Source: Rhynchopus sp. YZ270_cl-10 | Lineage: Eukaryota | Length of the DNA stretch: 64,000 nt | Direction: 5' to 3' | Assembly: GCA_964035575.1 (NCBI GenBank) | Contig: OZ037838.1 | Span: forward strand, 1,674,001-1,738,000 | Part shown: positions 2 to 63,610 of the stretch, piece after piece | Position numbering within the stretch: the first letter of the stretch is position 1 | Layout of the letters: each line of letters starts with the position of its first letter | Translations under genes and position numbers: made by a program | The notes under the pieces: model-generated | What the model was told of the DNA's origin: nothing | Databases searched by the model: none | The model's input: the letters and a program-made list of their open reading frames with translations, nothing else

Positions 2-607
2 GGCTCCTTGCAGTCTGTGTTCGCGTGTGGTGATGTTGTTGTCTCCCGTGGCGAACACGGCGTCTCCGTGTATGACGAAGACCTGACGTTGCTCCGCACT
101 CTCTCGCATCACAAAGGGTGCTGGCTCGTAGCAGTGTCTGACTGTGGTGGGTGGGTGATCACCTCCTCCACGAGGGAGGAGAAGGTAAGTCTGTGGGATG
201 TGAACACAGGTGAAGCTGTGGCATGTGTGCCTGTGGATGCGTGGTGTGTGGCACTTTCACGATCTGCCTCTGTCTTTGCTGTGGAGTGCTCTGGCAACGT
301 GCAGCTCTATGACTGGAGTGGTGCAGCTCTTCGCACTATTGATGTGGGTGGGGATGTCGAGGGCATGCAGTTCACCCCGTGTGGGAAGTACCTTGTGGTG
401 AGGGTAGAGGGTACGGATTCTGATGATGACACAGATGACGATCACAATACACCCCTGCACCAGTATGATGTGGCGACCATGTCCTGTGTGCGTGTGATAC
501 CAAATGTCCAACGGTTTGCGATATCGCCGTGTTCACGTGTGGTTGTGGTATTGGAAGAAGATGGCAACATTGCGACGAGACATCTATACCCACACAACAG
601 TGAGTGA
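2..607 (+). CDS. Ubl-WD40 family member, 3' part only (5' end lies before the window)
   Basis: Open frame with family motifs VSVYDEDLTLLR, LWDVNTGEAVACVP, QFTPCGKYL, AISPCSRV; stop TGA 605-607. Confidence 0.85.
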   Translation, partial: GSLQSVFACGDVVVSRGEHGVSVYDEDLTLLRTLSHHKGCWLVAVSDCGGWVITSSTREEKVSLWDVNTGEAVACVPVDAWCVALSRSASVFAVECSGNVQLYDWSGAALRTIDVGGDVEGMQFTPCGKYLVVRVEGTDSDDDTDDDHNTPLHQYDVATMSCVRVIPNVQRFAISPCSRVVVVLEEDGNIATRHLYPHNSE

Positions 608-787
608 TGTGTGACCAGGGGAGGGTGGTGATGAATATAACCCAGGGTACCAACAAAAACACCCAAGACCCTCAAAACACTCCCAAAAGCTCTCTTTTTA
701 GCCTTGTTGCACATATTCTCTCTTCTTGTCATTGCGAAGTGACACCACACTAACCATCACATCAAACAAAACAGACCCCTTAACAAC

Positions 788-1947
788 ATGATGGATGTGA
801 CCTTTGTGCTGGAAGAGTCAGGTGTGACTGCGACAGTGGAGGTGCCGTGCGAGGCGGACGCTGCAGCGGCAAAGGAGGTTGCGTGCACGGCGCTTGCTGT
901 CTCGCCTGCGTCTGTCGAGATGCGCATCGGCACGCAGGTGCTGGAGGGGACGTGCCGTCTGCAGGACACTGCGTTTGATTCAGGGATGCAGGTTGTGCTT
1001 GCCTGTCCTCGCTTTGCCGACATCAAGTGTCCTGCTGAGTACCGTACATGGCAGAGCTTATCCCACTTCTCGTTGTCTCCTTGTGGAACGCTCTGCCTCT
1101 ATTTGCACTTTAAAGGTTTCAATCTCAGTGTCGGTTCCAGTTTTGGTGCCATCGGCTTTGACACAGAAACCTTCGAGACTACCTTCAAGTTTGAAACCGA
1201 ACTTGGTGGGCTAGGTCCAGCTGCCATCTCACGGTGCAAGACACACTGCTACATGGCGTTTAAGCATTATCTTGCCAAGGTTGCGCTTCCGGGTGGGGAG
1301 GTGGTCCGCAAAGTCGACGGCCTCTCGACGTCGGTGTTTGCGTGTGGCGATGTTGTTGTCTCGCAAGGCACAGACTGCGTCTCTGTGTATGACGAAGACC
1401 TGACGTTGCTCCGCTCTCTCTCACACGAAGGATACAGGAAGGTGGCAGTGTCGGGCTGTGGTGGTGGGTGATCACCTCCTCCTTCACGGAGCAAAACGCA
1501 CGTCTGTGGGATGTGAACACAGGTGAAGCTGTGGCATGTGTGCCTGCGGATGGGAGTCATGTGGCGCTTTCACGGTGTGCCTCTGTCTTTGCTGTGGAGT
1601 GCTCTGGCAACGTGCAACTCTACGACTGGAGTGGTGCGGCTCTTGGCAGCTTCGATAAAGGGCAGTTTCGCGTCTCTTGCATGCGCTTCACTCCGTGTGG
1701 GAAGTACGTCGTTGTTGCGTTTGTGAGCGGTAGGTATGACGGTTCTGAAGAGCACACCCGTATGACACACCAGTATGATGTGGCGACCATGTCCTGTGTG
1801 CATGTGATACCAAATGCCTACGAAGCATTTGTGATATCGACGTGTTCACATGTGGTTTTATTAGAGTCAGGAGAAAGTGACGACCTTGTGTCACAGCATC
1901 TGTACCCCTACTTGAGTGATGTTTCGGATGAAAACAGAGAAGAGTAG
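788..1947 (+). pseudogene. Ubl-WD40 family member, frameshifted
   Basis: ORFs 788-1471 and 1468-1947 join; tgtggtggtgggtgatc at ~1457-1473 lacks one G relative to tgtggtgggtgggtgatc in other copies (could be a sequencing error). Confidence 0.75.
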
Positions 1948-2379: not shown

Positions 2380-3531
2380 ATGGATGTGACCCTTGTGCTG
2401 GAAGAGTCAGGCGTGACTGCGACAGTGGAGGTGCCGTGCGAGGCGGACGTTGCAGCGGCAAAGGAGGTTGCGTGCACGGCGCTTGCTGTCTCGCCTGCGT
2501 CTGTCGAGATGCGCATCGGCACGCAGGTGCTGGAGGGGACGTGCCGTCTGCAGGACACTGCGTTTGATGCAGGGGTGCAGGTTGTGCTTGCCCGCCGCTT
2601 TGCCGACATCAAGTGTCCTGCTAAACACAGTGTGCCGGAAGACTTGTGTAACTTCTCGTTGTCTCCTTGTGGAACGCTCTGTCTCTATTTCCACTTGAAA
2701 TATTTTTCCAATCCCGATGGTGGTATCGGTAGTACCGGCGTCGGCTTTTACACAGAAACCTTCGAGACTGCCTTCAAGTTTGAAATCGAATTCGGTGGGC
2801 TTGGTCCAGCTGCCATCTCACGGTGCAAGACACACTGCTACATGGCGTTCAGGCGTTGTCTTGCCAAGGTTGCGCTTCCGGGTGGGGAGGTGGTCCGCAA
2901 GGTCGAAGGCAACTCTACGTGGGTGTTTGCGTGTGGTGGTGTTGTTGTCTCCCAAGGTGAAGACGGCGTCTCTGTGTATGACGAAGACCTGACGTTGCTC
3001 CGCTTTCTCTCACACACAGGGTGCAACGAGGGGTATGGAAACGGCATGGCAGTGTCTGACTGTGGTGGGTGGGTGATCACCTCCTCCAACACTGAGCAGA
3101 ACGTACGTCTGTGGGATGTGAACACGGGTGAAGCTGTGGCATGTGTTCCTGCAGATGGGAGACACGTGGCCTATTCACGGTGTGCCTCTGTCTTTGCTGT
3201 GGAGTGCTCTGACAAAGTGCAGCTCTATGACTGGAGTGGTGCGGCTCTTCGCAGTGTTGATGTGGATGGGGATGTCGGGGATATGCAGTTCACCCCGTGT
3301 GGGAAGTACCTTGTGGTTAGGGTAGAGGGTACAGAATCGGAATACGATTCTGATGATGACACAGAGGACAATTACAATACACCCCTGCACCAGTATGATG
3401 TGGCGACCATGTCCTGTGTGCGTGTGATACCACATGCCCGACGGTTTGTGATAGCACCGTGTTCACGTGTGGTTTTGTTTGAGTCAGGAGATAGTTACGA
3501 CCTTGTGTCACAGCATTTGTACCCCTACTGA
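2380..3531 (+). CDS. Ubl-WD40 family protein
   Basis: ATG 2380 starts the shared MDVT..LEESGVTATVEVP domain; all 7 repeat motifs present. Confidence 0.9.
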   Translation: MDVTLVLEESGVTATVEVPCEADVAAAKEVACTALAVSPASVEMRIGTQVLEGTCRLQDTAFDAGVQVVLARRFADIKCPAKHSVPEDLCNFSLSPCGTLCLYFHLKYFSNPDGGIGSTGVGFYTETFETAFKFEIEFGGLGPAAISRCKTHCYMAFRRCLAKVALPGGEVVRKVEGNSTWVFACGGVVVSQGEDGVSVYDEDLTLLRFLSHTGCNEGYGNGMAVSDCGGWVITSSNTEQNVRLWDVNTGEAVACVPADGRHVAYSRCASVFAVECSDKVQLYDWSGAALRSVDVDGDVGDMQFTPCGKYLVVRVEGTESEYDSDDDTEDNYNTPLHQYDVATMSCVRVIPHARRFVIAPCSRVVLFESGDSYDLVSQHLYPY

Positions 3532-4150: not shown

Positions 4151-4371
4151 GGTACCTTGTGGTGGGGGTAGAGGGTACGGAATCTGATGATGACACAGAT
4201 GACGATCCCAAGAAACCCCTGCACCAGTATGATGTGGCGACCATGTCCTGTGTGCGTGTGTTACCGCAATGCACAGATGCATTTGCGATATCACCGTGTT
4301 CACGTGTTGTGGTACTCGAAGAAGATGGCAAAATTATAACAAGACATTTGTACCTACACAACAGTGTGTGA
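4151..4371 (+). pseudogene. 3'-terminal relic of a Ubl-WD40 gene
   Basis: YLVVGVEGTESDDDTDDDPKKPLHQYDVATMSCVRV...RHLYLHNSV closely matches the end of the copy at 2-607; no 5' part. Confidence 0.8.
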
Positions 4372-4562: not shown

Positions 4563-5714
4563 ATGATGGATGTGACCTTTGTGCTGGAAGAGTCAGGCGT
4601 GACTGCGACAGTGGAGGTGCCGTGCGAGGCGGACGTTGCAGCGGCAAAGGAGGTTGCGTGCACGGCGCTTGCTGTCTCGCCTGCGTCTGTCGAGATGCGC
4701 ATCGGCACGCAGGTGCTGGAGGGGACGTGCCGTCTGCAGGACACTGCGTTTGATGCAGGGGTGCAGGTTGTGCTTGCCTGCCGCTTTGCCGACATCAAGT
4801 GTCCTGCTGAGTACAGTGTAGAGGCTCCAACTGGTGGGCAGGGGATTAATGTATATCTTTTATCGCTGTCTCCTTGTGGAGCACTCTGCCTCTTTGCACA
4901 GACGGGGGGATATGTCACCGGCCTCGATACAAAAATCTTCAAGACTGCCTTCAACTTCAAAGTAGACATTGAGGTGTACGGTGCACCCGCCATCTCACGA
5001 TGCAATACACGCTGCTACCTGGCGTGTGGGGATTGCCTTCTCGAGGTCGCACCTCCGGGTGGGGAGGTGCTCCGCAAAGTCGACGGCCCTTCGTACGAAG
5101 TGGTCGCGTGTGGTGGTGTTGTTGTCTCCCAAGGCGAAGGAAGCGTCTCTGTGTATGACGAAGACTTGACGTTGCTCCGCTCTCTCAGACACAAGGGGTG
5201 CACCGAGTGGGGCGGGAGCGTGGCAGTGTCTGACTGTGGTGGGTGGGCCATCTCTTCCTCCTTCAGTGAGAAGAATGCACGTCTGTGGGATGTGAACACA
5301 GGTGAAGCTGTGGCATGTGTGCCTGTGTCAAGGTGCGCTGTAGCTCTTTCAAGCTCTGCCTCTGTCTTTGCTGTAAGGATCAATGTGGGTCGTATGGCCG
5401 CGACACCGAGTGTGCAGCTCTACGACTGGAGTGGTGCGTCCCTTCAGAACGTCACTATCTCTGGCGATGTACGTGACCTGCGATTCACCCCGTGTGGGAA
5501 GTACCTTGTGGTCCGTGTACGAAAGCGTACCGACGATGGCGAACTACATGCAGAGCTGCAACAGTATGATGTGGCGACTATGTCCTGTGTGCATGTGATA
5601 CCGGACGTCACCGGTTACTCATTTGCGATATCACCGTGTTCGCGTGTGGTTATGTTTCTATCATCCGACAACACCACCATTGTGACAAGACATCTGCACC
5701 CCCACAACGTGTGA
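4563..5714 (+). CDS. Ubl-WD40 family protein
   Basis: Intact ORF from MMDVTFVLEESG; family motifs. Confidence 0.9.
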   Translation: MMDVTFVLEESGVTATVEVPCEADVAAAKEVACTALAVSPASVEMRIGTQVLEGTCRLQDTAFDAGVQVVLACRFADIKCPAEYSVEAPTGGQGINVYLLSLSPCGALCLFAQTGGYVTGLDTKIFKTAFNFKVDIEVYGAPAISRCNTRCYLACGDCLLEVAPPGGEVLRKVDGPSYEVVACGGVVVSQGEGSVSVYDEDLTLLRSLRHKGCTEWGGSVAVSDCGGWAISSSFSEKNARLWDVNTGEAVACVPVSRCAVALSSSASVFAVRINVGRMAATPSVQLYDWSGASLQNVTISGDVRDLRFTPCGKYLVVRVRKRTDDGELHAELQQYDVATMSCVHVIPDVTGYSFAISPCSRVVMFLSSDNTTIVTRHLHPHNV

Positions 5715-6074: not shown

Positions 6075-8366
6075 ATGATGGATGTGACCTTTGTGCTGGA
6101 AGAGTCAGGCGTGACTGCGACAGTGGAGGTGCCGTGCGAGGCGGACGTTGCAGCGGCAAAGGAGGTTGCGTGCACGGCGCTTGCTGTCTCGCCTGCGTCT
6201 GTCGAGATGCGCATCGGCACGCAGGTGCTGGAGGGGACGTGCCGTCTGCAGGACACTGCGTTTGATGCAGGGGTGCAGGTTGTGCTTGCCCGCCCTCGCT
6301 TGGCCGACATCAAGTGTCCTGCTCAGTACAGTACCAAGGGGGGTGCAGAACACTTGTCACTCTCGCGTTGTGGAACGCTCTGCATTTATAGAGAGTGGAG
6401 TGGGCATGTTGGCGGTTTCGACACAGAAACCTTCGACACTGTCTTCTCGTTCAAAGTGCACACTACCGACTACGGGGAAACTATCACGGCTCCACCTGCC
6501 ATCTCGCAGTGCAAGACACGCTGCTACCTGGCGTGTGGGGATGACTTACGCATGGTTGCGCTTCCGGGTGGGGAGGTGCTCCGCAAAGTTGACGACTACT
6601 CGCATTCAGTCTTCGCTTGTGGTGGTGTTGTTGCCTCGAAGGGCAAAGACGGCGTCTCTGTGTATGACGAAGACCTGACGTTGCTCCGCTTCCTCCCGCA
6701 CGAGTGTATGACGCTCCGGTGTATGAATATACGGGTTTACGGGTTTGCGGGTTTGCACGTAGAGCGCTGGCTCGGGCACATGGCACTGTCTGACTGTGGT
6801 GGATGGGTGATCACCTCCTCCCTCAGTGAGAACAACGTCCGTCTGTGGGATGTGAACACAGGTGTTGCTGTTGCATGTGTGCCTATCGAAGGTAGTTGCT
6901 ATGCAGTGGCGCTTTCTTCGTCTGCCGCTGTCTTTGCTGTGGGGGTGAACAACCTCTATGATTGGAGTGGTGCGGCTCTTCGTAGTGTTGATGTGGATAG
7001 TGGTGCCTTGGGCATGCAGTTCACCCCGTGTGGGAAGTACCTTGTGGTCAAGGTATTTGCGGATGATGATGTTGAACACGATGATGGTGATGGTGATTAC
7101 GATGTCCAACTGCACCAGTATGATGTGGCGACCATGTCCTGTGTGCGTGTGTTACCACCACAAAGCCGTGGGTCATTTGCGATATCGCCGTGTTCACGTG
7201 TTGTTGTGGTTATGCAACCAGATGGCGTCATTGTTACAAAACATCTGTACCCACACAACGTTGATGAGGAGGACTTCTGGAAGAAGGACTCTGTCGTGGC
7301 ACGCGACATGCTCCTTCATGAGCACGGCATCGATGTTGCTTCTCCACTGCCTGCCTGCTCCTATCCGTCAAGCACATTTGAGTACCATCTTGAACACATC
7401 CTCAAAAACGACAACCCAGACCAGCTTGACCTGCTCCTCCGCAGCAAGCTGGACGGGAGTACAGGGCTGACTCTGCAGCGTGCAGTGCAATGCGCAGCAC
7501 ACCGCTGCGTCGATGTGATGCTCGATGGGTTTGAACGTTCTCCAGACGATACTGCTCATGCATTGCGTAGCTCCGCATCGCACTGTTGGGGCCACGAGGA
7601 CACACCAGGGAAGGTTCTCTGCGTGCTTCGTATTTTAAGACACTGCAGGGAGCAGGGTGTGGTGGTGGATCAGCCCCAGATACTGCAGGACACATTCAAG
7701 GGCCTGATATCGAGCAGCGCAGCACACCCGAAGCTCTGCCAACTTCTCATGCGCATGGGTGCGGCAGTCACCCTCGATGTCATTCTCTCTGCACACGACG
7801 TGCATTTATCGTTTCTTCAGTCCTGCGACATCTCTCCAGACATTCTCCTTACAGGCCCCAGCAGGGGTCCTGCTGGATGGGCGACACTCAGAAACCTTGA
7901 CGTTGTGCGAAGCCTTCATGCCTCATGGTGCAAACGTGTTGACCCCGATGGTGACGAAGATGCGCAGTGGTACAGAACGATGTCGCATGTTGCGCTCAGT
8001 GGTCGCTGTGCTGATGAACGTATCGTGAAACGCATCTTTGACCTTGCGGTGCAGCTTAACGCACGACGGTGTCGTGCGCTTCCGGCTGACCATGCACAGC
8101 ACAGCCCCTCTGTGATCGGTGCAAGCCGTGTGAACAGTGTCTTCTGTGGCAACAGCGAAGGGCCGCTATGCGAGTCGCCCTGCGACCCAGGTTGCCGCTG
8201 CATCACCTGTTTGGATGAGGAGAGGTATACTGGGAGAAGGTTCTGTCTGGGTGGTGGTGGTGGTGGTGGTTGGCGCAAGGCACCTGCAGTGGTCCGTGCA
8301 CAGCGCAAGGCACGCATAGCACAGCAAATGAGCAGAGCTGCCCAGAGGTGCAGAAGGCAGCGGTAG
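6075..8366 (+). CDS. Ubl-WD40 family protein with ~370-aa C-terminal extension (degenerate ankyrin-like helices, Cys-rich tail)
   Basis: Family ORF runs past the usual HLYPHN end (~7260) into LQRAVQCAAHRCVDVML / AAHPKLCQLLMRMGA and CESPCDPGCRCITC. Confidence 0.8.
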   Translation: MMDVTFVLEESGVTATVEVPCEADVAAAKEVACTALAVSPASVEMRIGTQVLEGTCRLQDTAFDAGVQVVLARPRLADIKCPAQYSTKGGAEHLSLSRCGTLCIYREWSGHVGGFDTETFDTVFSFKVHTTDYGETITAPPAISQCKTRCYLACGDDLRMVALPGGEVLRKVDDYSHSVFACGGVVASKGKDGVSVYDEDLTLLRFLPHECMTLRCMNIRVYGFAGLHVERWLGHMALSDCGGWVITSSLSENNVRLWDVNTGVAVACVPIEGSCYAVALSSSAAVFAVGVNNLYDWSGAALRSVDVDSGALGMQFTPCGKYLVVKVFADDDVEHDDGDGDYDVQLHQYDVATMSCVRVLPPQSRGSFAISPCSRVVVVMQPDGVIVTKHLYPHNVDEEDFWKKDSVVARDMLLHEHGIDVASPLPACSYPSSTFEYHLEHILKNDNPDQLDLLLRSKLDGSTGLTLQRAVQCAAHRCVDVMLDGFERSPDDTAHALRSSASHCWGHEDTPGKVLCVLRILRHCREQGVVVDQPQILQDTFKGLISSSAAHPKLCQLLMRMGAAVTLDVILSAHDVHLSFLQSCDISPDILLTGPSRGPAGWATLRNLDVVRSLHASWCKRVDPDGDEDAQWYRTMSHVALSGRCADERIVKRIFDLAVQLNARRCRALPADHAQHSPSVIGASRVNSVFCGNSEGPLCESPCDPGCRCITCLDEERYTGRRFCLGGGGGGGWRKAPAVVRAQRKARIAQQMSRAAQRCRRQR

Positions 8367-9844: not shown

Positions 9845-10972
9845 ATGATGGATGTGACCTTTGTGCTGGAAGAGTCAGGCGTGACTGCGACAGTGGAGGT
9901 GCCGTGCGAGGCGGACGTTGCAGCGGCAAAGGAGGTTGCGTGCACGGCGCTTGCGGTCTCGCCTGCGTCTGTCGAGATGCGCATCGGCACGCAGGTGCTG
10001 GAGGGGACGTGCCGTCTGCAGGACACTGCGTTTGATGCAGGGGTGCAGGTTGTGCTTGCCCGCCGCTTTGCCGACATCAAATGTCCTGCTGAGTATAGTG
10101 CACAGCGGAGTGTGAAGCACTTGTCGCTGTCGCGTTGTGGAACGCTCTGCGTCTTTGTACAGAAGAATGAGGTGTATGTCGGCTTCGACACAGAAACCTT
10201 CGACACTGTCTTCGAGTTCAAAGTGGACGGTGCTAAGCAAACCCTGCCTGCCATCTCGCAGTGCAAGACACGCTGCTACCTGGCGTATGGGGATGACTTA
10301 CGCATGGTTGCGCTTCCGGGTGGGGAGGTGATCCGCAAGGTCGACGGCCCCTCGTACTCAGTGTTTGCGTGTGGCAGTGTTGTTCTCTCCCAGGGCATAG
10401 GCGTCTCTGTGTATGACGAAGACCTGACGTTGCTCCGCTCTCTCTCGCACCAGTGCTGGGGCGTACAGAAAGTGGCTCTTTCGCATTGTGGTGGGTGGCT
10501 GCTCGCCTCCGCCCATCCCGAGAGGCAGGCCCGTCTGTGGGATGTGAACACAGGTGAAGCTGTGGCATGTGTGCCGACGGAGGGGTTGAGTGGAGTGGCG
10601 CTTTCACGGTCTGCCTCTGTCTTTGCTGTGGGGGAGAAGGACGGTGTGCACCTCTTTGATTGGAGTGGTGCGGCTCTTGGCATTATTGATGTGGATGGGT
10701 GGGATATCGAGGACACACACATGCAGTTCACTCCGTGTGGGAAGTACCTTGTAGTCAAGGTGCAGGAATATTATGACGATGAACGAGATGATGAAGGTAG
10801 TGTAGAACTGCACCAGTACGATGTGGCGACGATGTCCCGTGTGCGCGTGATTGTTGACCTTCACGCCAAGTGTTTGTCATTTGCGATATCACCGTGTTCG
10901 CGTGTGGCTGTGTTTGTGTCCTCAAGCAACACCATTGTGACGAAACCTCTGTACCCACACAACACTGAGTGA
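9845..10972 (+). CDS. Ubl-WD40 family protein
   Basis: Intact ORF, family motifs. Confidence 0.9.
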   Translation: MMDVTFVLEESGVTATVEVPCEADVAAAKEVACTALAVSPASVEMRIGTQVLEGTCRLQDTAFDAGVQVVLARRFADIKCPAEYSAQRSVKHLSLSRCGTLCVFVQKNEVYVGFDTETFDTVFEFKVDGAKQTLPAISQCKTRCYLAYGDDLRMVALPGGEVIRKVDGPSYSVFACGSVVLSQGIGVSVYDEDLTLLRSLSHQCWGVQKVALSHCGGWLLASAHPERQARLWDVNTGEAVACVPTEGLSGVALSRSASVFAVGEKDGVHLFDWSGAALGIIDVDGWDIEDTHMQFTPCGKYLVVKVQEYYDDERDDEGSVELHQYDVATMSRVRVIVDLHAKCLSFAISPCSRVAVFVSSSNTIVTKPLYPHNTE

Positions 10973-11195: not shown

Positions 11196-11255
11196 ATGGA
11201 TGTGACCTTTGTGCTGGAAGAGTCAGGCGTGACTGCGACAGTGGAGGTGCCGTGA
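11196..11255 (+). pseudogene. 5' relic of a Ubl-WD40 gene (19 codons)
   Basis: MDVTFVLEESGVTATVEVP* joined directly to the family's 3' intergenic repeat (gtgagg..attcattttgaga). Confidence 0.85.
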
Positions 11256-11676: not shown

Positions 11677-13074
11677 ATGGACGTGACCATTCAAAGCTTC
11701 GATAAGAAGGACCACGTCATCGAGGTGGGTGTGGACGATACTGTGACGGAACTGCGTCGCAACGTGGCGTCTGCAGTGGGGTTGCACGAAAACCGCTTTA
11801 ACATGAGTCTTGCAGGAGACGTTGTGGGAGAAGGAGCCGAAATCGCACAGCTGAGCACCGGGGACACCATTGTGCTGACGAAGAAAACGAAGAAGCGCGA
11901 AGCCACGGAAGCACTCCGTGCATTGGGGGAGACGGACCTGACTGCAGAAAGGGTATCGAGCGTGCAGGACCCTCTCGTGGCGTGTTTGCTTCTACAGGCG
12001 GAGGTGACGACAGCGATTCCTGACAGCTTCTTACACAAACACCCACACCTCTCCAATGCATCTAGACAGATTAGACAGATTAACGCCCTGCGTACGACCC
12101 ATCCAATCACTGCACTCGACTTATCTGCACTAGACTACGTTGCGTCGATTGGGGACAACTTTCTGTGCACCTCCAACGCGTTGGTGGAAGTAGACCTCTC
12201 TGGGCCAAGCGGCGTCACGCACATCGGCTCCCACTTTCTGAGGTCCTCCTGGGCACTGAAGTCCGTGGACCTCTCGGGGTTTACAAACGTCGTGTCGATT
12301 GGGGATTTTTTTATGTCTGCCTGTACAGCCCTGAAGTGCGTCGACCTGTCTGCGTTCGGCAGCGTCACACACATTGGGAACTGCTTTCTTGGGAGTCTGC
12401 CGTCGCAAACCTGTGGGAGGTTCCCACACCCCAAGGAGTGTTGCGTGTCTCTGACGGATGTGGACCTCTCAGAGCTGCGCAATGTGACGGAGGTGGGCGA
12501 CTTCTTCTTGGCGAGGTGCCTGTCTCTACCGATGCTAGACCTGTCCCCGCTCAATCTGCGCACCATCGGGGCAGGCTTTCTTGAGGAGTGCACTGCGCTG
12601 CGTGCTTTGGATCTTGATGGGCTGCGCAACGTGACGGAGGTGGGGCAGGGCTTCCTCGATATGTGCTCGGCGTTGACTGTCATCGATCTGAGCGCAATAA
12701 ACTGCAACGCAGACTTCGGGGACAGATTTCTCACGAACTGCACGTCGTTGACCTCCTTGGATGCCTCTGCTCTAAGAGGGGTAGCGTGCTTCGGTGACTT
12801 CTTCCTCCATCACTGCGTCTCGCTCACCACGCTAGACCTCTCTGGCGTGCACCAGGCCGTGGATGACAATCCACGCAACCCGCCGCTGTACGGCTGCGAT
12901 GCTTTGACCACAATCCACCTCGGGACGGAGGAAGACGTTCAGTTCAGTCCGATCGGATTCAGACGTTCCGGTGCGTCGCTCGTCCGCGTGTCGGATGAGG
13001 AGGTTGCTTCAGAGACACCAGAGGTGGTGCAGACGAACTCCCGTTCCAAGTGCTCAACGTGTGTGTTGCAATGA
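11677..13074 (+). CDS. Ubiquitin-like domain + BspA/TpLRR-like leucine-rich repeat protein with C-terminal CaaX motif
   Basis: N-term MDVTIQSFDKKDHVIEVGVDDTVTELRRNVA...GDTIVL (beta-grasp pattern); ~10 repeats of ~24 aa LxxvDLSxxxxVxxIGxxFLxxC; ends CSTCVLQ*. Confidence 0.85.
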   Translation: MDVTIQSFDKKDHVIEVGVDDTVTELRRNVASAVGLHENRFNMSLAGDVVGEGAEIAQLSTGDTIVLTKKTKKREATEALRALGETDLTAERVSSVQDPLVACLLLQAEVTTAIPDSFLHKHPHLSNASRQIRQINALRTTHPITALDLSALDYVASIGDNFLCTSNALVEVDLSGPSGVTHIGSHFLRSSWALKSVDLSGFTNVVSIGDFFMSACTALKCVDLSAFGSVTHIGNCFLGSLPSQTCGRFPHPKECCVSLTDVDLSELRNVTEVGDFFLARCLSLPMLDLSPLNLRTIGAGFLEECTALRALDLDGLRNVTEVGQGFLDMCSALTVIDLSAINCNADFGDRFLTNCTSLTSLDASALRGVACFGDFFLHHCVSLTTLDLSGVHQAVDDNPRNPPLYGCDALTTIHLGTEEDVQFSPIGFRRSGASLVRVSDEEVASETPEVVQTNSRSKCSTCVLQ

Positions 13075-14886: not shown

Positions 14887-14910
14887 GGGCAGCGACTCCC
14901 GTATAAAATT

Positions 14911-15705: not shown

Positions 15706-15905
15706 TGGCCCCCGGCTATAAAGCAGTGGAGTCGCTGGCCCTACCCCCCTTCCCCCTCTGTCGCTATCTCAACAAAGAAGCGCACCTACCTCTCAACTTA
15801 CAAAGTACTACAATGAAATACAATACAAACAAACTTTCAAACCCCCCTTCCCCCTCTGACATACTTTCCACCACACTGCAGACCCCCTCCTCCCTCCCCC
15901 TGACC

Positions 15906-19716: not shown

Positions 19717-19759
19717 AATATACTATTTATGTAAATAGTATTCGTGCATGTAAATAATA

Positions 19760-41655: not shown

Positions 41656-41657
41656 TA

Positions 41658-49421: not shown

Positions 49422-50567
49422 ATGGATGTGACCTTTGTGCTGGAAGAGTCAGGCGTGACTGCGACAGTGGAGGTGCCGTGCGAGGCGGACGTTGCAGCGG
49501 CAAAGGAGGTTGCGTGCACGGCGCTTGCTGTCTCGCCTGCGTCTGTCGAGATGCGCATCGGCACGCAGGTGCTGGAGGGGACGTGCCGTCTGCAGGACAC
49601 TGCGTTTGATTCAGGGGTGCAGGTTGTGCTTGCCCGCCGCTTTGCCAACATCAAGTGTCCTGCTAAACACACTGCTGTACCAACGCGGGTGGGACACTTA
49701 TCGCTGTCGCGTTGTGGAACGCTCTGTGTCTTTTGCGAACATGACCAGCATGTTGGTGGCTTTGACACCGAAACCTTTGTCAATGTCTTCGAGTTCACAA
49801 TGGGTAATGTTCGGTTGCGTGTGCCTGCCATCTCTCCGTGCAAGACACGCTGCTACCTGGCGTGTGTGGATCACCTTCTCGAGGTTGCGCTTCCGGGTGG
49901 GGAGGTGCTCCGCGAAGTCGACGGCCCCTTCTCCTCAGTGTTCGCGCGTGGTGGTGTTGTGGCCTCGCAGGGCACAGACGGCGTCTCTGTGTATGACGAA
50001 GACCTGACGTTGCTCCGCTCTCTCTCGCATGAGGGGTGCACAGACATGGCAGTGTCTGACTGTGGTGGGTGGGTGATCACCTCCTGCGTCAGTGAGAAGA
50101 AGGCACGTCTGTGGGATGTGAACACAGGTGAAGCTGTGGCATGTGTGCCTGTGGATGGGAGGCGAGTGGCGATTTCACGGTCTGCCTCTGTCTTTGCTGT
50201 GGTGGAGAATATCGCCCTGCCGCACTATGATTGGACTGGGTGGGGAGTGAAAGTGCAGCTGTACGACTGGAGTGGTGCGTCTCTTGGCAGCTTTGATGAT
50301 TGTCCGGGCGATGGGGATGTATTCGTCCTTGGAATGCAATTCACCCCGGATGGGAAGTACCTTCTGGTCGATTTATACATGACACATGTCAATGGATCAG
50401 AACATTTGGTGCTGAAGCAGTATGATGTGGCAACCAAGGCCTGTGTACTTGCGATCCCGGACGTCGAGTGTGAGTCGTTTGCGATATCGCCATGTTCGCG
50501 TGTGGTTATATTTGGCGATGTCAAATCCATTGTGACGAGGTATATCTACCCATACAACAGTGAGTGA
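49422..50567 (+). CDS. Ubl-WD40 family protein (KHTAVPT subfamily)
   Basis: Intact ORF, family motifs. Confidence 0.9.
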   Translation: MDVTFVLEESGVTATVEVPCEADVAAAKEVACTALAVSPASVEMRIGTQVLEGTCRLQDTAFDSGVQVVLARRFANIKCPAKHTAVPTRVGHLSLSRCGTLCVFCEHDQHVGGFDTETFVNVFEFTMGNVRLRVPAISPCKTRCYLACVDHLLEVALPGGEVLREVDGPFSSVFARGGVVASQGTDGVSVYDEDLTLLRSLSHEGCTDMAVSDCGGWVITSCVSEKKARLWDVNTGEAVACVPVDGRRVAISRSASVFAVVENIALPHYDWTGWGVKVQLYDWSGASLGSFDDCPGDGDVFVLGMQFTPDGKYLLVDLYMTHVNGSEHLVLKQYDVATKACVLAIPDVECESFAISPCSRVVIFGDVKSIVTRYIYPYNSE

Positions 50568-53876: not shown

Positions 53877-55019
53877 ATGGATGTGACCTTTGTGCTGGAA
53901 GAGTCAGGCGTGACTGCGACAGTGGAGGTGCCGTGCGAGGCGGACGTTGCAGCGGCAAAGGAGGTTGCGTGCACGGCGCTTGCTGTCTCGCCTGCGTCTG
54001 TCGAGATGCGCATCGGCACGCAGGTGCTGGAGGGGACGTGCCGTCTGCAGGACACTGCGTTTGGTGCAGGGGTGCAGGTTGTGCTTGCCCGTCGCTTTGC
54101 CAGCATCAAGTGTCCTGCTGAGTTCAGTCTGCCGTTGCGTCACTTGCGTAAATTATGTAACTTCTCGTTGTCCCCTTGTGGAACGCTCTGCCTCTATTAC
54201 TACTCGGAGTCTGCCGGTTGCAATATTTCCGTAGTCGGCTTTGACACAGAAACCTTCGTGACTGCCTTCAAGTTTGGAGTCGCATTTGGTGCGCTTGGTC
54301 CGCCTGCCATCTCACGGTGCAAGACACGCTGCTACCTGGCGTGTCAGGATTGGCTTCTCGAGGTTGCACTTCCGGGTGGGGAGGTGCTCCGCAAAGTCGA
54401 AAGCCTCTCGACGCGAGTGTTTGCGTGTGGTGGTGTTGTTGTCTCGGAGAGCCACAAGAGCGTCTCTGTGTATGACGAAGACCTGACGTTGCTCCGCTCT
54501 CTCTCGCAGAAATTGTGTTTTGGAGTTGCAGTATCTGACTGTGGTGGGTGGGTGATCACCTCCTCCTGGGAGGAGAAGAACGCACGTCTGTGGGATGTGA
54601 ACACAGGTGAAGCTGTGGCATGTGTGCCTGCGGATGGGGGTGCAGTGGCGATTTCACGGTCTGTCTCTGTCTTTGCTGCGGTGTGCTACGGCAAAGCGCA
54701 GCTGTATGACTGGAGTGGTGCGGCTCTTGGCTGCTTTGTAAATGGGCAGTTGGAGTCTCGCGTCTTTGCCGTGCAGTTCACTCCGTGTGGGAAGTACGTC
54801 GTTGTTGGGTTTGTGAGTGGTGACTTTGAAGTGTGTTCTGAAGAGTGCACCCTACACCAGTATGATGTGGCGACCATGTCCTGTGTGCGTGTGATACGAA
54901 CTGCCGACGAAGCGTTTGCGATATCGCCGTGTTCACGTGTGATTTTGTTTGACTCAGGAGACAGTGACGACCTTGTGTCACAGCATCTGTACCCGCACTT
55001 TTTGAGGGATGTTTCGTAA
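53877..55019 (+). CDS. Ubl-WD40 family protein
   Basis: Intact ORF, family motifs. Confidence 0.9.
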   Translation: MDVTFVLEESGVTATVEVPCEADVAAAKEVACTALAVSPASVEMRIGTQVLEGTCRLQDTAFGAGVQVVLARRFASIKCPAEFSLPLRHLRKLCNFSLSPCGTLCLYYYSESAGCNISVVGFDTETFVTAFKFGVAFGALGPPAISRCKTRCYLACQDWLLEVALPGGEVLRKVESLSTRVFACGGVVVSESHKSVSVYDEDLTLLRSLSQKLCFGVAVSDCGGWVITSSWEEKNARLWDVNTGEAVACVPADGGAVAISRSVSVFAAVCYGKAQLYDWSGAALGCFVNGQLESRVFAVQFTPCGKYVVVGFVSGDFEVCSEECTLHQYDVATMSCVRVIRTADEAFAISPCSRVILFDSGDSDDLVSQHLYPHFLRDVS

Positions 55020-58071: not shown

Positions 58072-59215
58072 ATGGATGTGACCTTTGTGCTGGAAGAGTC
58101 AGGCGTGACTGCGACAGTGGAGGTGCCGTGCGAGGCGAACGTTGCAGCGGCAAAGGAGGTTGCGTGCACGGCGCTTGCTGTCGCCTGCGTCTGTCGAGAT
58201 GCGCATCGGCACGCAGGTGCTGGAGGGGACGTGCCGTCTGCAGGACACTGCGTTTGGTGCAGGGGTGCAGGTTGTGCTTTCCCGTCGCTTTGCTGACATC
58301 AAGTGTCCTGCTGAGTACTGTGTGCCGGATAGCTTGTCTTACTTCTCGTTGTCTCCTTGTGGAACGCTCTGTGTCTATTTCCACTCGGGGGATTCCAATG
58401 CCGATAACTTCACTGCCGTCGTCGGCTTTGACACAGAATCCTTCGAGACTGCCTTCAAGTTTGAAGTCGAATTTTGGGTGCGTGGTCCGCCTGCCATCTC
58501 ACGGTGCAAGACACACTGCTACATGGCGTTCAGGCGTTGTCTTGCCAAGGTTGCGCTTCCGGGTGGGGAGGTGGTCCGCAAAGTCGACGGCCTCTCGACG
58601 TGGGTGTTTGCGTGTGGTGGTGTTGTTGTCTCCCAAAGCAAAGACGGGGTCTCTGTGTATGACGAAGACCTGACGTTGCTCCGCACTCTCTCGCACGAAG
58701 GCTGCAGGGAGGTGGCAGTGTCTGACTGTGGTGGGTGGGTGATCACCTCCTCCAACACTGAGCAGAACGCACGTCTGTGGGATGTGAACACGGGTGAAGC
58801 TGTGGCATGTGTGCCTGCGGATGGGAGGCGAGTGGCGCTTTCACGGTCTGCCTCTGTCTTTGCTGTGGATTGCTCTGACAAAGTGCATCTCTATGACTGG
58901 AGTGGTGCGGCTCTTGGCAGCTTCGATAAAGGGCAGTTTCGCATCACCTACATGCGCTTCACTCCATGTGGGACGTACGTCGTTGTTGGGTTTGTGAGTG
59001 GTGACTTTGCGTGGGATTCTGAAGAGTGCACCCTGCACCAGTATGATGTGGCGACCATGTCCTGTGTGCGTGTGATACCAAATGCCTACGAAGCCTTTGC
59101 GATATCGCCATGTTCACGTGTCGTTTTGTTTGAGTCAGGAGAAAGTGACGACCTTGTGTCACAGCATCTGTACCCCTACTTGAGTGATGTTTCGGATGTA
59201 AACAGAGAAGAGTAG
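58072..59215 (+). pseudogene. Ubl-WD40 family member, frameshifted in the Ubl domain
   Basis: 2-nt deletion at ~58181 (gctgtcgcctgcg vs gctgtctcgcctgcg in other copies). Confidence 0.8.
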
Positions 59216-59538: not shown

Positions 59539-60633
59539 ATGGATGTGACCTTTGTGCTGGAAGAGTCAGGCGTGACTGCGACAGTGGAGGTGCCGTGCGA
59601 GGCGGACGTTGCAGCGGCAAAGGAGGTTGCGTGCACGGCGCTTGCTGTCTCGCCTGCGTCTGTCGAGATGCGCATCGGCACGCAGGTGCTGGAGGGGACG
59701 TGCCGTCTGCAGGACACTGCGTTTCGTGCAGGGGTGCAGGTTGTGCTTGCTCGCCGCTTTGCCGACATCAAGTGTCCTACTGAGTACAACGTGCAGGAGG
59801 GAGTGAAGCACTTGTCGCTGTCGCGTTGTGGAACGCTCTGTCTCTCTTGTGATGAAAAGCATACTATTGGTGGCTTCGACACAGAAACCTTCGACACTAC
59901 CTTCGCTTTTAGTGTAAGTCAGCTTCGTTTCTGCGCTTCCCCTGCTATCTCGCAGTGCAAGACACGCTGCTACCTGGCGTGTGGGGAGGACTTCCGTGTG
60001 CTTGCGCTTCCGGGTGGGGAGGTGCTCCGCAAAGTCGACGGCTCCTCGCACTCAGTGTTCGCGTGTGGCGGTGTTGTTGTCTCCCGAGGCACAGACGGCG
60101 TCTCTGTGTATGACGAAGACCTGACGTTGCTCCGCTCTCTCTCGCATGAACGGTGCAGCGAGGTAGCAGTGTCGGACTGTGGTGGGTGGGTGATCGCCTC
60201 ATCCTTACTTGAAGAGAAGAAGGCACGTCTATGGGATGTGAACACAGGTGAAGCTGTGGCATGTGTGCCCGTGGCAGGGGGCAATGTGGCGCTTTCACGG
60301 TCTGCCTCTGTCTTTGCTGTAGAGGGCTCTGACAAAGTGCACCTCTATGATTGGAGTGGTGTGGCTATGGGCAGCTTTGCACAGGACTCAGGCACTTACT
60401 TCTGCGGCATGCAGTTCACCCCGTGTGGGAAGTGCCTTGTGATTAACAGTCTGGATGTTGCACAGGGCGGTGCCTGGTCCCTGCTTCAGTATGATCTGTC
60501 GAGCATGTCCTGCGTACGTGAGATACCGAACACCAAAGGTTCGCCCTTTGCGATATCGCCATGTTCGCGTGTGGTTGTGTTTGAAAACCAGTCTGGCAAC
60601 ACTATACTAACAAGACACCTGCACCCCTACTAG
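59539..60633 (+). CDS. Ubl-WD40 family protein
   Basis: Intact ORF, family motifs. Confidence 0.9.
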   Translation: MDVTFVLEESGVTATVEVPCEADVAAAKEVACTALAVSPASVEMRIGTQVLEGTCRLQDTAFRAGVQVVLARRFADIKCPTEYNVQEGVKHLSLSRCGTLCLSCDEKHTIGGFDTETFDTTFAFSVSQLRFCASPAISQCKTRCYLACGEDFRVLALPGGEVLRKVDGSSHSVFACGGVVVSRGTDGVSVYDEDLTLLRSLSHERCSEVAVSDCGGWVIASSLLEEKKARLWDVNTGEAVACVPVAGGNVALSRSASVFAVEGSDKVHLYDWSGVAMGSFAQDSGTYFCGMQFTPCGKCLVINSLDVAQGGAWSLLQYDLSSMSCVREIPNTKGSPFAISPCSRVVVFENQSGNTILTRHLHPY

Positions 60634-61041: not shown

Positions 61042-62136
61042 ATGATGGATGTGACCTTTGTGCTGGAAGAGTCAGGCATGACTGCGACAGTGGAGGTGCC
61101 GTGCGAGGCGGACGTTGCAGCGGCAAAGGAGGTTGCGTGCACGGCGCTTGCTGTCTCGCCTGCGTCTGTCGAGATGCGCATCGGCACGCAGGTGCTGGAG
61201 GGGACGTGCCGTCTGCAGGACACTGCGTTTGATGCAGGGGTGCAGGTTGTGCTTGCCCGCCGCTTTGCCGACATCAAGTGTCCTGCTCAGTACAGTATGC
61301 ACGGACACTTATGTAACTTCTCGTTGTCTCCTTGTGGGGAGCTCTGTATCTATTTCTACGTGACGGACGATATCAGTATTGCCTGCAGCGGCTTTGACAC
61401 AGAAACCTTCGAGACTGCCTTCAGGTTTGACGTCGGGTTTTGTGTGCGTGGTCCGCCTGCCATCTCACGGTGCAAGGCATACTGCTACATGCCGGGTCTT
61501 GCCAAGGTTGCGCTTCCGGGTGGGGAGGTGATCCACAAGGTCGACGATGTTTCATTGTCTGTGTTTGCGTGTGGCGGTGTTGTTGTGTCACAGGAACACA
61601 ACGGTGTCTCTGTGTATGACGAAGACCTGACGTTACTCCGCTTTCTCTCGCACGAAGGATGCAGGAAGGTGGCAGTATCTGGCTGTGGTGGGTGGGTGAT
61701 CACCACCTCGTGGGGGGAACCGAACGCACGTCTGTGGGATGTGAACACAGGTGAAGCTGTGGCATGTGTGCCTGCGGATGGGAGTCATGTGGCGCTTTCA
61801 CGGTCTGCCTCTGTCTTTGCTGTGGATTGCTCTGACGAAGTGCAGCTCTATGACTGGAGTGGTGCGGCTCTTGGCTGTTTAAACGAGGATAAGGCTAGCG
61901 TCTGTGGCGTGCAGTTCACTCCATGTGGGAAGTACGTGGTTGTTGGGTTTGAGAGTTGTGATCACGATGATGGACGGAAATATAGTTTACATCAGTTTGA
62001 TGTGGCAACCCAGTCCTGTGTGCGGGTGATATTGGACAGCCACGATGCGTTTGTGATATCGCCGTGTTCACGTGTGGTTGTGTTTGAGTCATCAGATAGT
62101 ACCACTCTTGTGTCACAGCATCTGTACCCCGACTGA
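61042..62136 (+). CDS. Ubl-WD40 family protein
   Basis: Intact ORF, family motifs. Confidence 0.9.
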   Translation: MMDVTFVLEESGMTATVEVPCEADVAAAKEVACTALAVSPASVEMRIGTQVLEGTCRLQDTAFDAGVQVVLARRFADIKCPAQYSMHGHLCNFSLSPCGELCIYFYVTDDISIACSGFDTETFETAFRFDVGFCVRGPPAISRCKAYCYMPGLAKVALPGGEVIHKVDDVSLSVFACGGVVVSQEHNGVSVYDEDLTLLRFLSHEGCRKVAVSGCGGWVITTSWGEPNARLWDVNTGEAVACVPADGSHVALSRSASVFAVDCSDEVQLYDWSGAALGCLNEDKASVCGVQFTPCGKYVVVGFESCDHDDGRKYSLHQFDVATQSCVRVILDSHDAFVISPCSRVVVFESSDSTTLVSQHLYPD

Positions 62137-62446
62137 GCGATGCAGTCCACCCTGTGTGGGAAGTACCTCCTCGTTGTCGCGAGTACTGCGGTGTGTTGCT
62201 ATCGTGCGTTGCATCAGTATTTGCGTTGCACCCTCGACCTACTAGCCTGTGAGGGAATTCATTTTGAGACATTTTGAGAATAACGACCACACCACCCTTT
62301 ACCTCTCTTTTTCACTTTTGCTTTGTTAAAACCCTCTTCTGTTGGTGGAAACTACAGACACAACGAAACCGTCACAAACACACAAAACAAAACAACCCAC
62401 ACCTCATCTCCTCCCAACAGAGGTGGAACAAGAAGAAGACAAAACA

Positions 62447-63610
62447 ATGGATGTGACCTTTGTGCTGGAAGAGTCAGGCGTGACTGCGACAGTGGAGGTG
62501 CCGTGCGAGGCGGACGTTGCAGCGGCAAAGGAGGTTGCGTGCACGGCGCTTGCTGTCTCGCCTGCGTCTGTCGAGATGCGCATCGGCACGCAGGTGCTGG
62601 AGGGGACGTGCCGTCTGCAGGACACTGCGTTTGATGCAGGGGTGCAGGTTGTGCTTGCCCGCCGCTTTGCCGACATCAAGTGTCCTGCTAAGCTCAGTCT
62701 GCCGCCTGGCTTGTCTCTCTTCTCGTTGTCTCCTTGTGGATCGCTCTGTCTCTATTTGTACTTTAATGGTTTCAATCTCGGTGGAGGTTCCAGTTTTGGT
62801 GGCGTCGGCGTTGATACAGAAGCCTTCGAGACTGCCTTCGAGTTTGAAATCGAATTCGGTGGGCTTGGTCCAGCTGCCATCTCACGATGCAAGACACACT
62901 GCTACATGGCGTTCAGGCGTTGTCTTGCCAAGGTTGCGCTTCCGGGTGGGGAGGTGGTCCGCAAAGTCGACGGCCTCTCGACGTGGGTGTTCGCGTGTGG
63001 CGGTGTTCTTATCTCCCAAGGCAAAGGCGGCGTCTCTGTGTATGACGAAGACCTGACGTTTCTCCTCACTCTCTCACACAAGGGGTGCAACGAGGGGAGC
63101 GACGTGGCACTGTCTGACTGTGGTGGGTGGGTGATCACCTCTTCCGGGAAGGAGAAGAACGCGCGTCTGTGGGATGTGAACACAGGTGAAGCTGTGGCAT
63201 GTGTGCCTGCGGATGGGAGGCGAGTGGCGCTTTCACGGTCTGCCTCTGTCTTTGCTGTGGAGTGCTCTCAGAAAGTGCAGCTCTATGACTGGAGTGGTGC
63301 GGCTCTTGGCAGCTTTGAAGAGGAGCTGTCTCGCGTCTTTGCCGTGCAGTTCACTCCGTGTGGGAAGTACGTCGTTGTTGGGTTTGTGAGTGGTGACATT
63401 GTTCTGGATGATGAGCGCGCCCTACACCAGTATGATGTGGCAACCATGTCCTGTGTGCGTGTGATACCAAATGCCAAGCAAGCATTTGCGATATCGCCGT
63501 GTTCACATGTGGTTTTGTTTGAGTCAGGAGAAAGTGACGACCTTGTGTCACAGCATCTGTACCCCTACTTGAGTGATGTTTCGGATGAAAACAGAGAAGA
63601 GTTGCCCTGA
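62447..63610 (+). CDS. Ubl-WD40 family protein
   Basis: Intact ORF; close relative of 788-1947 including the downstream intergenic region. Confidence 0.9.
   Translation: MDVTFVLEESGVTATVEVPCEADVAAAKEVACTALAVSPASVEMRIGTQVLEGTCRLQDTAFDAGVQVVLARRFADIKCPAKLSLPPGLSLFSLSPCGSLCLYLYFNGFNLGGGSSFGGVGVDTEAFETAFEFEIEFGGLGPAAISRCKTHCYMAFRRCLAKVALPGGEVVRKVDGLSTWVFACGGVLISQGKGGVSVYDEDLTFLLTLSHKGCNEGSDVALSDCGGWVITSSGKEKNARLWDVNTGEAVACVPADGRRVALSRSASVFAVECSQKVQLYDWSGAALGSFEEELSRVFAVQFTPCGKYVVVGFVSGDIVLDDERALHQYDVATMSCVRVIPNAKQAFAISPCSHVVLFESGESDDLVSQHLYPYLSDVSDENREELP

What the first reader, a model, noticed from the sequence alone, without database searches (positions are those of the whole stretch)
2..63610. 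Diversifying receptor array: constant ubiquitin-like domain plus WD40-like propeller with hypervariable loops
Seen: 18 full-length tandem copies plus fragments. The first ~80 codons (MDVTFVLEESG...LARRFADIKCP) are almost identical at the DNA level. The next ~290 codons alternate between fixed scaffold blocks (SLSxCGTLC, AISxCKTRCYLA, VALPGGEV, VSVYDEDLTLLR, AVSDCGGWVITSS, LWDVNTGEAVACVP, LYDWSGA, QFTPCGKYL, QYDVATMSCV, FAISPCSRV) and short segments that differ in sequence and length in nearly every copy. Knowledge: the N-terminus fits the beta-grasp pattern (b-b-a-b-b, GxxL...LxD...GxxVxL) and has no GG, so it is an integral Ubl. Seven SPCG-like repeats fit a 7-bladed propeller, whose loops are typical ligand surfaces. 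Inference: this is a constant-effector/variable-binder repertoire, analogous to expanded F-box or NLR families. It might couple recognition of foreign or rapidly changing proteins to the proteasome/p97 or an E3 through the Ubl. I do not recognise this architecture as a described family.
Basis: partly seen in the sequence, partly recalled or inferred. Interest (0 to 1): 0.9.

Follow-up and report, generated by a model that had tools for sequence, protein, structure and literature searches.

The report
Hypervariable ubiquitin-propeller gene array
A protist genome, likely a diplonemid's, carries a large array of genes that join a nearly identical ubiquitin-like domain to a seven-bladed propeller that varies mostly in the loops predicted to form one face, likely a repertoire of in-cell binding proteins that would recognise foreign or fast-changing proteins.

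Summary
The array is real. The window holds 18 gene-length copies (13 intact, 5 with one frameshift each) and 3 fragments. A search found 419 homologues; 81 of the 120 listed lie on a contig of the window's own length. Predicted folds are a ubiquitin-like domain (pLDDT 84, Z 13 to ISG15/ubiquitin) and a 7-bladed WD40 propeller. Variation sits on the top face: loop entropy 2.52 bits against 0.29 on the bottom face.

(1) The Ubl is near-identical even at silent sites (4-fold diversity 0.006 vs 0.15-0.31). Its constancy reflects homogenisation, likely by crossovers in the cassette, not shown constraint.
(2) Positive selection is strong in standard tests (2dL 261-298) but only borderline once rate variation, multi-nucleotide changes and recombination are allowed.
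(3) The Ubl lacks ubiquitin's Leu8/Ile44 patch, so a classical proteasome-shuttle role is unlikely.

The host is likely a diplonemid, since its Skp1 clusters with Rhynchopus. Best reading: a shuffled repertoire of cytosolic binders with a shared docking domain, likely for defence against intracellular microbes (about 0.5). Expression and partners are untested. The family was not found in my literature searches.

The parts
2..607 (+). 3' part of a copy, cut by the window edge
791..1947 (+). Ubl-WD40 copy, one frameshift near 1463
2380..3531 (+). intact Ubl-WD40 copy (383 aa)
4219..4371 (+). 3' fragment (last blade)
4566..5714 (+). intact copy (382 aa)
6078..8366 (+). intact copy with a 364-aa C-terminal extension (762 aa); the extension is shared with P0273, P0275, P0277 and has no Pfam match
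9848..10972 (+). intact copy (374 aa)
11196..11255 (+). 19-codon 5' fragment of the Ubl cassette
24228..25313 (+). intact copy (361 aa)
25957..27048 (+). intact copy (363 aa), used as reference: Ubl = codons 1-71 (25957-26169), propeller = codons 82-363
27345..28480 (+). copy with one frameshift near 28075-28085
29108..30199 (+). intact copy (363 aa), 93% DNA identity to 25957 in the propeller
36603..37754 (+). intact copy (383 aa); recent subfamily with 39414, 46391, 49422
39414..40572 (+). copy with one frameshift near 40247
46391..47531 (+). copy with an 8-nt deletion near 47025
49422..50567 (+). intact copy (381 aa)
53877..55019 (+). intact copy (380 aa); 5' flank of the 36603 type, propeller of the 62447 clade
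58072..59215 (+). copy with a frameshift in the Ubl near 58181
59539..60633 (+). intact copy (364 aa)
61045..62136 (+). intact copy (363 aa)
62447..63610 (+). intact copy (387 aa)
11677..13074 (+). neighbour: a different Ubl + BspA-type LRR (465 aa); possibly a parallel variable-binder family
35287..36015 (+). neighbour: B-box-like zinc finger + BspA-type LRR
21836..22827 (+). neighbour: canonical Skp1 with a predicted terminal GT-AG intron (22381-22808); lineage marker, no link to the array shown

Best explanation
These genes encode a ubiquitin-like domain joined to a seven-bladed WD40 propeller whose variation is concentrated in the loops predicted to form its top face, and they likely act as a repertoire of cytosolic binding proteins that would recognise foreign or fast-changing proteins, such as those of intracellular bacteria or viruses, and would pass them to a shared partner through the ubiquitin-like domain. 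How the repertoire is made: tandem duplication and loss (shown: a recent four-copy subfamily, 5 of 18 copies frameshifted, fragments). Recombination between copies (shown: PHI test, mosaics of 5' flank and propeller). The near-identical Ubl cassette likely serves as a crossover hub that keeps itself uniform while swapping flanks and propellers (inferred). Top loops change by point, multi-nucleotide and indel events (shown), with a likely but only moderately supported excess of amino-acid change. The downstream partner is unknown and likely not a classical Ile44-patch ubiquitin receptor (inferred from the residues).
For: Folds: Ubl pLDDT 83.9, VIA Z 13.0, rmsd 1.7 over 75 residues; propeller blocks pLDDT mostly 87-97, best Foldseek matches are 7-bladed WD40 proteins. 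Variation in 104 distinct proteins: top loops 2.52 bits (62 sites) vs bottom loops 0.29 (58 sites), p=5e-20; length varies in 14 of 14 top-loop segments vs 1 of 14 bottom segments. All 130 proteins compared have distinct top faces. All 31 sites with NEB>0.95 under M2a lie on the top half, 0 of 144 bottom codons. Three closest disjoint pairs: top-loop pN/pS 1.95, p=0.03; bottom 0.43. Whole-propeller test with rate variation and multi-hit changes: 2dL 10.6, p=0.005. The asymmetry is old: 10 distant homologues are 33-42% identical on the bottom face vs 11-23% on top. In four mid-distance homologues the Ubl (64-82%) stays more conserved than the propeller (44-48%). No signal peptide or membrane segment by crude hydropathy. 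The same d-a and b-c loops are under positive selection in Podospora non-self receptors (PMC1805685, passages). Diplonemids carry bacterial endosymbionts in cytoplasm or nucleus (bioRxiv 10.64898/2026.01.29.702485, passage).
Against: Positive selection is not secure. Site-rate variation alone gave 2dL 2-87 in neutral simulations of the standard test. With rate variation and multi-hit changes the top-face 2dL is 7.6, and 3 of 16 neutral simulations with recombination reached that. Top-loop omega 1.42 does not differ significantly from 1 (p=0.09), and over all five disjoint pairs pN/pS is 1.29 (p=0.17). Synonymous divergence is also 3-4 times higher in the top loops, which fits relaxed loops that escape homogenisation. 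Within the recent family the Ubl shows no sign of purifying selection (11 non-synonymous vs 1 synonymous difference in five pairs). Conserved bottom loops are the WD40 signature turns (recalled), so they are no proof of a partner. No ligand, partner or location has been shown.
Confidence: 0.5

Rival explanations
1. Largely neutral or selfish expansion: unequal crossing-over amplifies a tolerated gene; gene conversion keeps the Ubl and scaffold blocks uniform; the top loops, which tolerate change, drift at omega near 1; few copies matter.
For: Ubl uniform even at silent sites; silent divergence raised in the loops; strict selection tests borderline; 5 of 18 copies frameshifted plus fragments.
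Against: Purifying selection on the bottom face (omega about 0.36-0.45; pN/pS 0.52, p=0.006) shows the proteins have been kept folded; closest pairs show pN/pS about 2 in top loops; the architecture persists in homologues at 24-32% propeller identity.
Confidence: 0.22
2. Delivered effectors of the Crinkler type: the Ubl would be a translocation header and the variable propeller would bind proteins of prey or host cells.
For: CRN proteins have a constant N-terminal Ubl header with a recombination hotspot at its end (PMC5289972, passages), like the crossover pattern here.
Against: No LXLFLAK motif in strand 3; the Crinkler Pfam family is not among the 16 families hit by 15 Ubls; the C-terminal part is a non-enzymatic propeller rather than a toxin domain; no route of export is known.
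Confidence: 0.1
3. Decoys or sponges: the ubiquitin-like part and variable propeller would soak up symbiont effectors such as deubiquitinases or ligases without passing them on.
For: Ubiquitin-like fold with an altered, acidic surface (net charge -8, one Lys); high copy number.
Against: Nothing specific supports it; a decoy for ubiquitin-binding effectors would be expected to keep the Ile44 patch (inference).
Confidence: 0.08
4. Substrate adaptors for the cell's own proteins, for example in an SCF-like ligase with the neighbouring Skp1, or a derived Ytm1/Rsa4-like handle for an AAA ATPase.
For: A Skp1 gene lies inside the array; Ubl+WD40 proteins act as handles for Rea1/midasin (PMC6920918, passages).
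Against: No F-box; the Skp1 is ordinary and 91-93% identical to R. euleeides Skp1; no NLE domain hit; own substrates would not explain hundreds of different faces.
Confidence: 0.1

Closest known systems
Podospora HNWD / het-d, het-e non-self receptors (PMC1805685, passages read)
   Same: WD40 propeller with diversified d-a and b-c top-face loops; homogenisation and exchange among family members
   Different: There: about 10 genes, NACHT plus death domain, near-identical repeats exchanged within a gene. Here: hundreds of genes, one 7-blade propeller with distinct blades, no NACHT, Ubl at the N-terminus, exchange between whole genes.
Nematode and plant F-box expansions (PMC8120010, passages read; Thomas 2006 seen only as cited there)
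   Same: Tandem expansion, constant N-terminal module, variable C-terminal binder, proposed anti-pathogen role
   Different: No F-box or BTB; the N-terminal module is a Ubl; its constancy includes silent sites; no ligase link shown.
Ytm1/WDR12 and Rsa4/NLE1 (PMC6920918, passages read; propeller part and single-copy status recalled)
   Same: N-terminal Ubl followed by a WD40 propeller
   Different: Conserved ribosome-assembly factors whose Ubl binds the Rea1 MIDAS domain; NLE Pfam not hit; not among the best 60 PDB sequence hits or listed fold hits.
Crinkler (CRN) effectors (PMC5289972, passages read)
   Same: Constant Ubl header, recombination at the header, variable C-terminus
   Different: No LXLFLAK motif, no toxin or enzyme domain, no evidence of delivery.
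Rad23/Dsk2-type proteasome shuttles and UBX adaptors (binding surfaces recalled)
   Same: Integral Ubl without GG; Dsk2 and Rad23 Ubls are among the fold hits
   Different: Leu8 and Ile44 positions are Glu and Arg; no UBA domain; no UBX match.

Membership tests
Ubiquitin-like (beta-grasp) integral domain | beta-grasp fold aligned to ubiquitin over about 70 residues | tested here: met
   Z 13.0; TM 0.83; profile E about 1e-6 to single Ubls; 7 of 15 Ubls hit PF00240 at E<=1; P0271 passes the Pfam cut-off
Conjugatable ubiquitin-like modifier | C-terminal di-glycine after the last strand | tested here: not met
   alignments
WD40 seven-bladed propeller | seven four-stranded blades | tested here: met
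   Pfam WD40-type hits below cut-off
Proteasome shuttle Ubl (Rad23/Dsk2) | Leu8/Ile44-type hydrophobic patch (role recalled) | tested here: not met
   register: Ile44 = Arg45 (invariant in 120 of 120 proteins), Leu8 = Glu; by my reading none of the 15 Ubls has Ile there
Proteasome shuttle Ubl (Rad23/Dsk2) | binds proteasome receptors | not testable with these tools
   no eukaryotic receptor sequence available to fold with
Ytm1/Rsa4 (NLE domain + WD40) | NLE-type Ubl | tested here: inconclusive
   not among the families listed (25 of 30 shown in 90) or the hits shown; the lists are cut and HMMER filters drop weak hits
Ytm1/Rsa4 (NLE domain + WD40) | conserved single-copy gene with an invariant MIDAS-binding acidic residue | tested here: not met
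   hundreds of paralogues; Asp63, in the loop before the last strand where I recall that residue lying, is the most variable Ubl site
Crinkler effectors | LXLFLAK motif in strand 3 of the Ubl header | tested here: not met
   against the description in PMC5289972
Crinkler effectors | C-terminal toxin or enzyme domain | tested here: not met
   the C-terminal part is a WD40 propeller
F-box / SCF substrate receptors | F-box motif | tested here: not met
   no F-box hit; the N-terminus folds as a Ubl
F-box / SCF substrate receptors | binds Skp1 | not tested
NLR / HNWD receptors | NACHT or NB-ARC domain | tested here: not met
   361-387-aa proteins are fully accounted for by Ubl + propeller
Diversifying receptor family (works-like claim) | variation concentrated on the ligand face | tested here: met
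   face assigned from secondary structure and propeller topology, not from coordinates
Diversifying receptor family (works-like claim) | positive selection on that face | tested here: inconclusive
Diversifying receptor family (works-like claim) | expressed and ligand-binding | not testable with these tools
   no reads or binding assay available

The most novel reading that the evidence does not exclude
A germline-encoded, recombination-shuffled intracellular 'antibody-like' repertoire in a unicellular eukaryote: hundreds of WD40 paratopes, reassorted by crossovers in an identical ubiquitin-like cassette, detect proteins of endosymbiotic bacteria or viruses and route them through a non-canonical Ubl to an unknown disposal or signalling machine, alongside parallel Ubl-LRR and B-box-LRR families.
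Probability: 0.3. Interest if true: 0.9.

Novelty: new variant of a known kind. Interest (0 to 1): 0.68.

Why it matters
[quoted passage not shown] This family offers a concrete candidate with a single constant domain that can serve as bait. It would add a further solution to the constant-module/variable-binder design known from F-box and NLR families. It also shows a way to keep a constant domain uniform, by crossovers in a shared cassette. The natural set of 130+ distinct top faces on one scaffold could inform propeller-binder design.

Tried and rejected
No whole genome was held, so copy number rests on protein searches. Hits 121-419 were not shown and may include unrelated WD40 proteins.

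Expression: no RNA holder listed. Contig depths were not used as copy number. Whether the frameshift near 58181 is real or an assembly error could not be told.

No related locus was found in JGI metagenomes (153 pattern matches, 0 confirmed) or IMG/VR (57, 0 confirmed). These scans use short patterns from the recent family and are weak evidence of absence.

The ESM Atlas gave no answer. Complex prediction for Ubl-WD40 plus Skp1 was not available, so there is no verdict.

90 of 106 other ORF-length stretches were scanned (16 overlapping satellites or a family fragment left out); 0 of 90 hit Pfam at E<=0.001.

The plain M8/M2a result was not accepted at face value after neutral simulations gave similar statistics. 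Loop-to-loop correlation showed no decay with distance (rho -0.10, p=0.33), so it does not measure tract length, although correlations were low throughout (r 0.01-0.12). Fold constraint on the recent Ubl from protein variants was weak: 7 variants at 15 core sites vs 43 at 55 other sites.

Two papers asked for by DOI were not held. The search of earlier findings returned nothing. Supplements of the cited papers were not read and could list such families.
Full report
OBSERVATION. ORF reading and tblastn find 18 gene-length copies, all on the + strand, and 3 fragments. 13 copies are intact. 5 (791, 27345, 39414, 46391, 58072) have one frameshift each and no nonsense codon in the reading frame. 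One lesion is an 8-nt deletion, unlikely to be a read error; the others could be either, and laying contigs on one of them did not settle it. The first 71 codons are 98.9% identical at DNA level, the propeller part 75.2%. Copies are 1.4-14.4 kb apart, interspersed with a Ubl-LRR gene, a Cache-domain gene, Skp1, an ankyrin-like gene, a B-box-LRR gene and satellites.

FAMILY SIZE AND HOST. A protein search gave 419 hits at E<=0.001. The 120 shown have about 66-76% identity (one at 49%, plus the query itself); all but the 3 window-encoded ones are from ENA; by my count 81 of 120 lie on a 2.71-Mb contig of the same length as the window's and 32 on a 457-kb one. Hits 121-419 were not shown. A profile search of 1.84 billion representatives added divergent homologues, most of them full-length, at 24-48% propeller identity. 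Of the 28 clusters looked up other than those of Skp1 and the Ubl-LRR gene, all were ENA-only. The window's Skp1 falls in a 90% cluster with Rhynchopus euleeides EukProt proteins (91-93% identity). The host is therefore likely a diplonemid near Rhynchopus. Co-oriented genes and upstream pyrimidine tracts (no control run) fit Euglenozoa.

STRUCTURE. AlphaFold2 on a 105-row alignment gave a confident propeller (blocks mostly pLDDT 87-97) and a low-confidence N-terminus, as the alignment is invariant there. Foldseek's best matches are 7-bladed WD40 proteins such as LIS1, G-beta and WDR5 (TM about 0.65, E about 1e-15). With 14 other Ubls added the N-terminal 78 residues folded at pLDDT 83.9. They match ISG15 and ubiquitin at Z 13.0 and 12.9 and TM 0.83. 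A profile of these Ubls finds single ubiquitin-like chains at E about 1e-6, and P0271 passes the Pfam ubiquitin cut-off. There is no di-glycine. In the register, Ile44 of ubiquitin corresponds to Arg45, invariant in 120 of 120 proteins, and Leu8 to Glu. The domain has net charge -8 and one lysine. The patch that shuttle factors use (recalled) is thus absent.

WHERE THE VARIATION LIES. PMC1805685 (passages) places d-a and b-c loops on the top face. In 104 distinct proteins, mean entropy is 2.52 bits in 62 top-loop sites, 0.29 in 58 bottom-loop sites (p=5e-20) and 0.08 in the Ubl. Top-end strand halves average 1.64 against 0.50 for bottom-end halves. Length varies in 14 of 14 top segments and 1 of 14 bottom segments. 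All 130 proteins compared have different top faces. The asymmetry holds in 10 distant homologues.

WHY THE UBL IS CONSTANT. Among the 13 intact copies, 4-fold silent diversity is 0.006 in the Ubl and 0.15-0.31 across blades; dS is 0.005 against 0.20-0.77. Selection on protein cannot do this, so the cassette has been homogenised. Copies with 98-100% identical 60-nt 5' flanks can have propellers only 67-72% identical, and the reverse occurs (16 discordant pairs of 153). This points to crossovers in the shared Ubl (inference). The propeller itself recombines (PHI p=0.0005), and 10 of 29 proteins with a close N-half neighbour are unlike that neighbour in the C-half. Older constraint on the Ubl is suggested by four mid-distance homologues (Ubl 64-82% vs propeller 44-48%). 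Within the recent family it is not visible (11 non-synonymous, 1 synonymous).

SELECTION. These tests use my own codon-model code on 13 copies and 258 gap-free propeller codons. M2a vs M1a gave 2dL 269, M8 vs M7 298, and M8 vs M8a 261, with omega about 5 on 17% of sites. All 31 sites with posterior >0.95 are on the top half, 0 of 144 on the bottom; the bottom alone shows no signal (2dL 0.45). The result shrinks under controls: 118-123 with multi-nucleotide changes, 20.0 with site-rate variation, 10.6 (p=0.005) with both. Away from indels, 2dL with multi-hit is 10.8, 8.9 and 5.0 for 61, 43 and 28 codons. Neutral simulations with rate variation gave 2-87 in the test without it (18 replicates). 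For the top face with both controls 2dL is 7.6, reached by 3 of 16 neutral simulations with recombination; top-loop omega 1.42 vs 1 has p=0.09. Direct counts gave top-loop pN/pS 1.95 (p=0.03) in the three closest disjoint pairs and 1.29 (p=0.17) in all five, with bottom 0.43 and 0.52. Multi-nucleotide codon changes number 15 in 168 top-loop codons and 0 in 425 bottom codons of the closest pairs. Verdict: purifying selection on the bottom face, release of constraint on the top face, and likely but not proven positive selection.

CONTEXT. Six long proteins carry the same Ubl: a read-through of two copies; four with a shared C-terminal extension without Pfam match, including the window's 6078; and one preceded by B-box, predicted coiled-coil and a second Ubl. 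That second Ubl is 44% identical to the Ubl of the window's Ubl-LRR gene, and its zinc finger 58% identical to the window's B-box-LRR gene. The array thus sits among other modular genes with repeat-type binders. Skp1 is ordinary, with a predicted terminal intron; nothing links it to the array beyond position.

MECHANISM. Shown: architecture, one-sided variation, homogenised Ubl, recombination, turnover. Inferred: cytosolic location (crude hydropathy only), top face as ligand site, Ubl as docking handle for a shared non-canonical partner, and defence against intracellular microbes as the driver. Diplonemids host bacteria in cytoplasm or nucleus (bioRxiv 10.64898/2026.01.29.702485, passage). Confidence 0.5. 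Rivals: neutral or selfish expansion 0.22, Crinkler-like effectors 0.10, adaptors for own proteins 0.10, decoys 0.08.

COMPARISON AND NOVELTY. It works most like Podospora HNWD receptors (same loops, homogenisation; passages) and nematode F-box expansions (PMC8120010, passages), but has neither NACHT nor F-box. It shares domain order with Ytm1/Rsa4 (PMC6920918, passages; propeller part recalled) and a Ubl header with Crinklers (PMC5289972, passages), but fails their defining features where tested. Literature searches (listings and abstract starts only) showed no description of such a family. The main text of the D. papillatum genome paper has 0 occurrences of 'WD40' or 'ubiquitin' (PMC10161547, term search). 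PMC8061765 was seen as passages. Supplements were not read, and subscription journals are not covered. I rate it a new variant of a known kind, interest 0.68. It is a large and cleanly organised undescribed family, but function, expression and partners are open.

Noticed in passing
window 11677-13074 (+): Ubl (Pfam ubiquitin E 7e-4) + BspA-type LRR ending in a Cys-Val-Leu-Gln tetrapeptide that looks like a prenylation signal (motif recalled); its Ubl is 44% identical to an internal Ubl of P0276.
   Followed up: partly
window 35287-36015 (+) and P0276: B-box-like zinc finger + LRR; P0276 has two B-box-like fingers, a predicted coiled coil and a Ubl in front of a Ubl-WD40 copy, a TRIM-like arrangement, possibly a read-through.
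   Followed up: partly
window 7272-8366 (+): 364-aa C-terminal extension of copy 6078, nearly identical in P0273, P0275 and P0277 (partly deleted in the last two), no Pfam match; looks helical or ankyrin-like by eye.
   Followed up: partly
window 21836-22827 (+): Skp1 with a predicted GT-AG intron 22381-22808 before the last six codons; a second near-identical Skp1 (P0282) lies on a contig of the same length and a third (P0279) elsewhere.
   Followed up: partly
window 15705-16637 (+): ORF with a Cache/PDC sensor domain (Pfam dCache_1 E 1.5e-7).
   Followed up: no
window 30602-33235 (+): 877-aa ORF with a weak ankyrin match near its N-terminus.
   Followed up: no
window 43039-43467 and 20568-20755: Perfect satellites (5-nt unit x 86; 8-nt unit x 23.5); 41695-42839 holds a 1.1-kb inverted repeat at 95% identity, possibly a transposon remnant.
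   Followed up: no
window 40230-40260, 37400-37450, 50210-50260 (approximate): In the 36603 subfamily the long blade-5 b-c loop looks like a local duplication of the following strand that then diverged, a possible way of growing loops.
   Followed up: no
window near 58279 (runs X2 and X4): Three contigs in each run leave the Ubl cassette at its 3' end and continue into unlike sequence, hinting that the cassette is fused to other domains elsewhere.
   Followed up: no
intact copies: Cysteine-rich for predicted cytosolic proteins (13-26 Cys per copy over the reference positions), many in the bottom-face turns.
   Followed up: no
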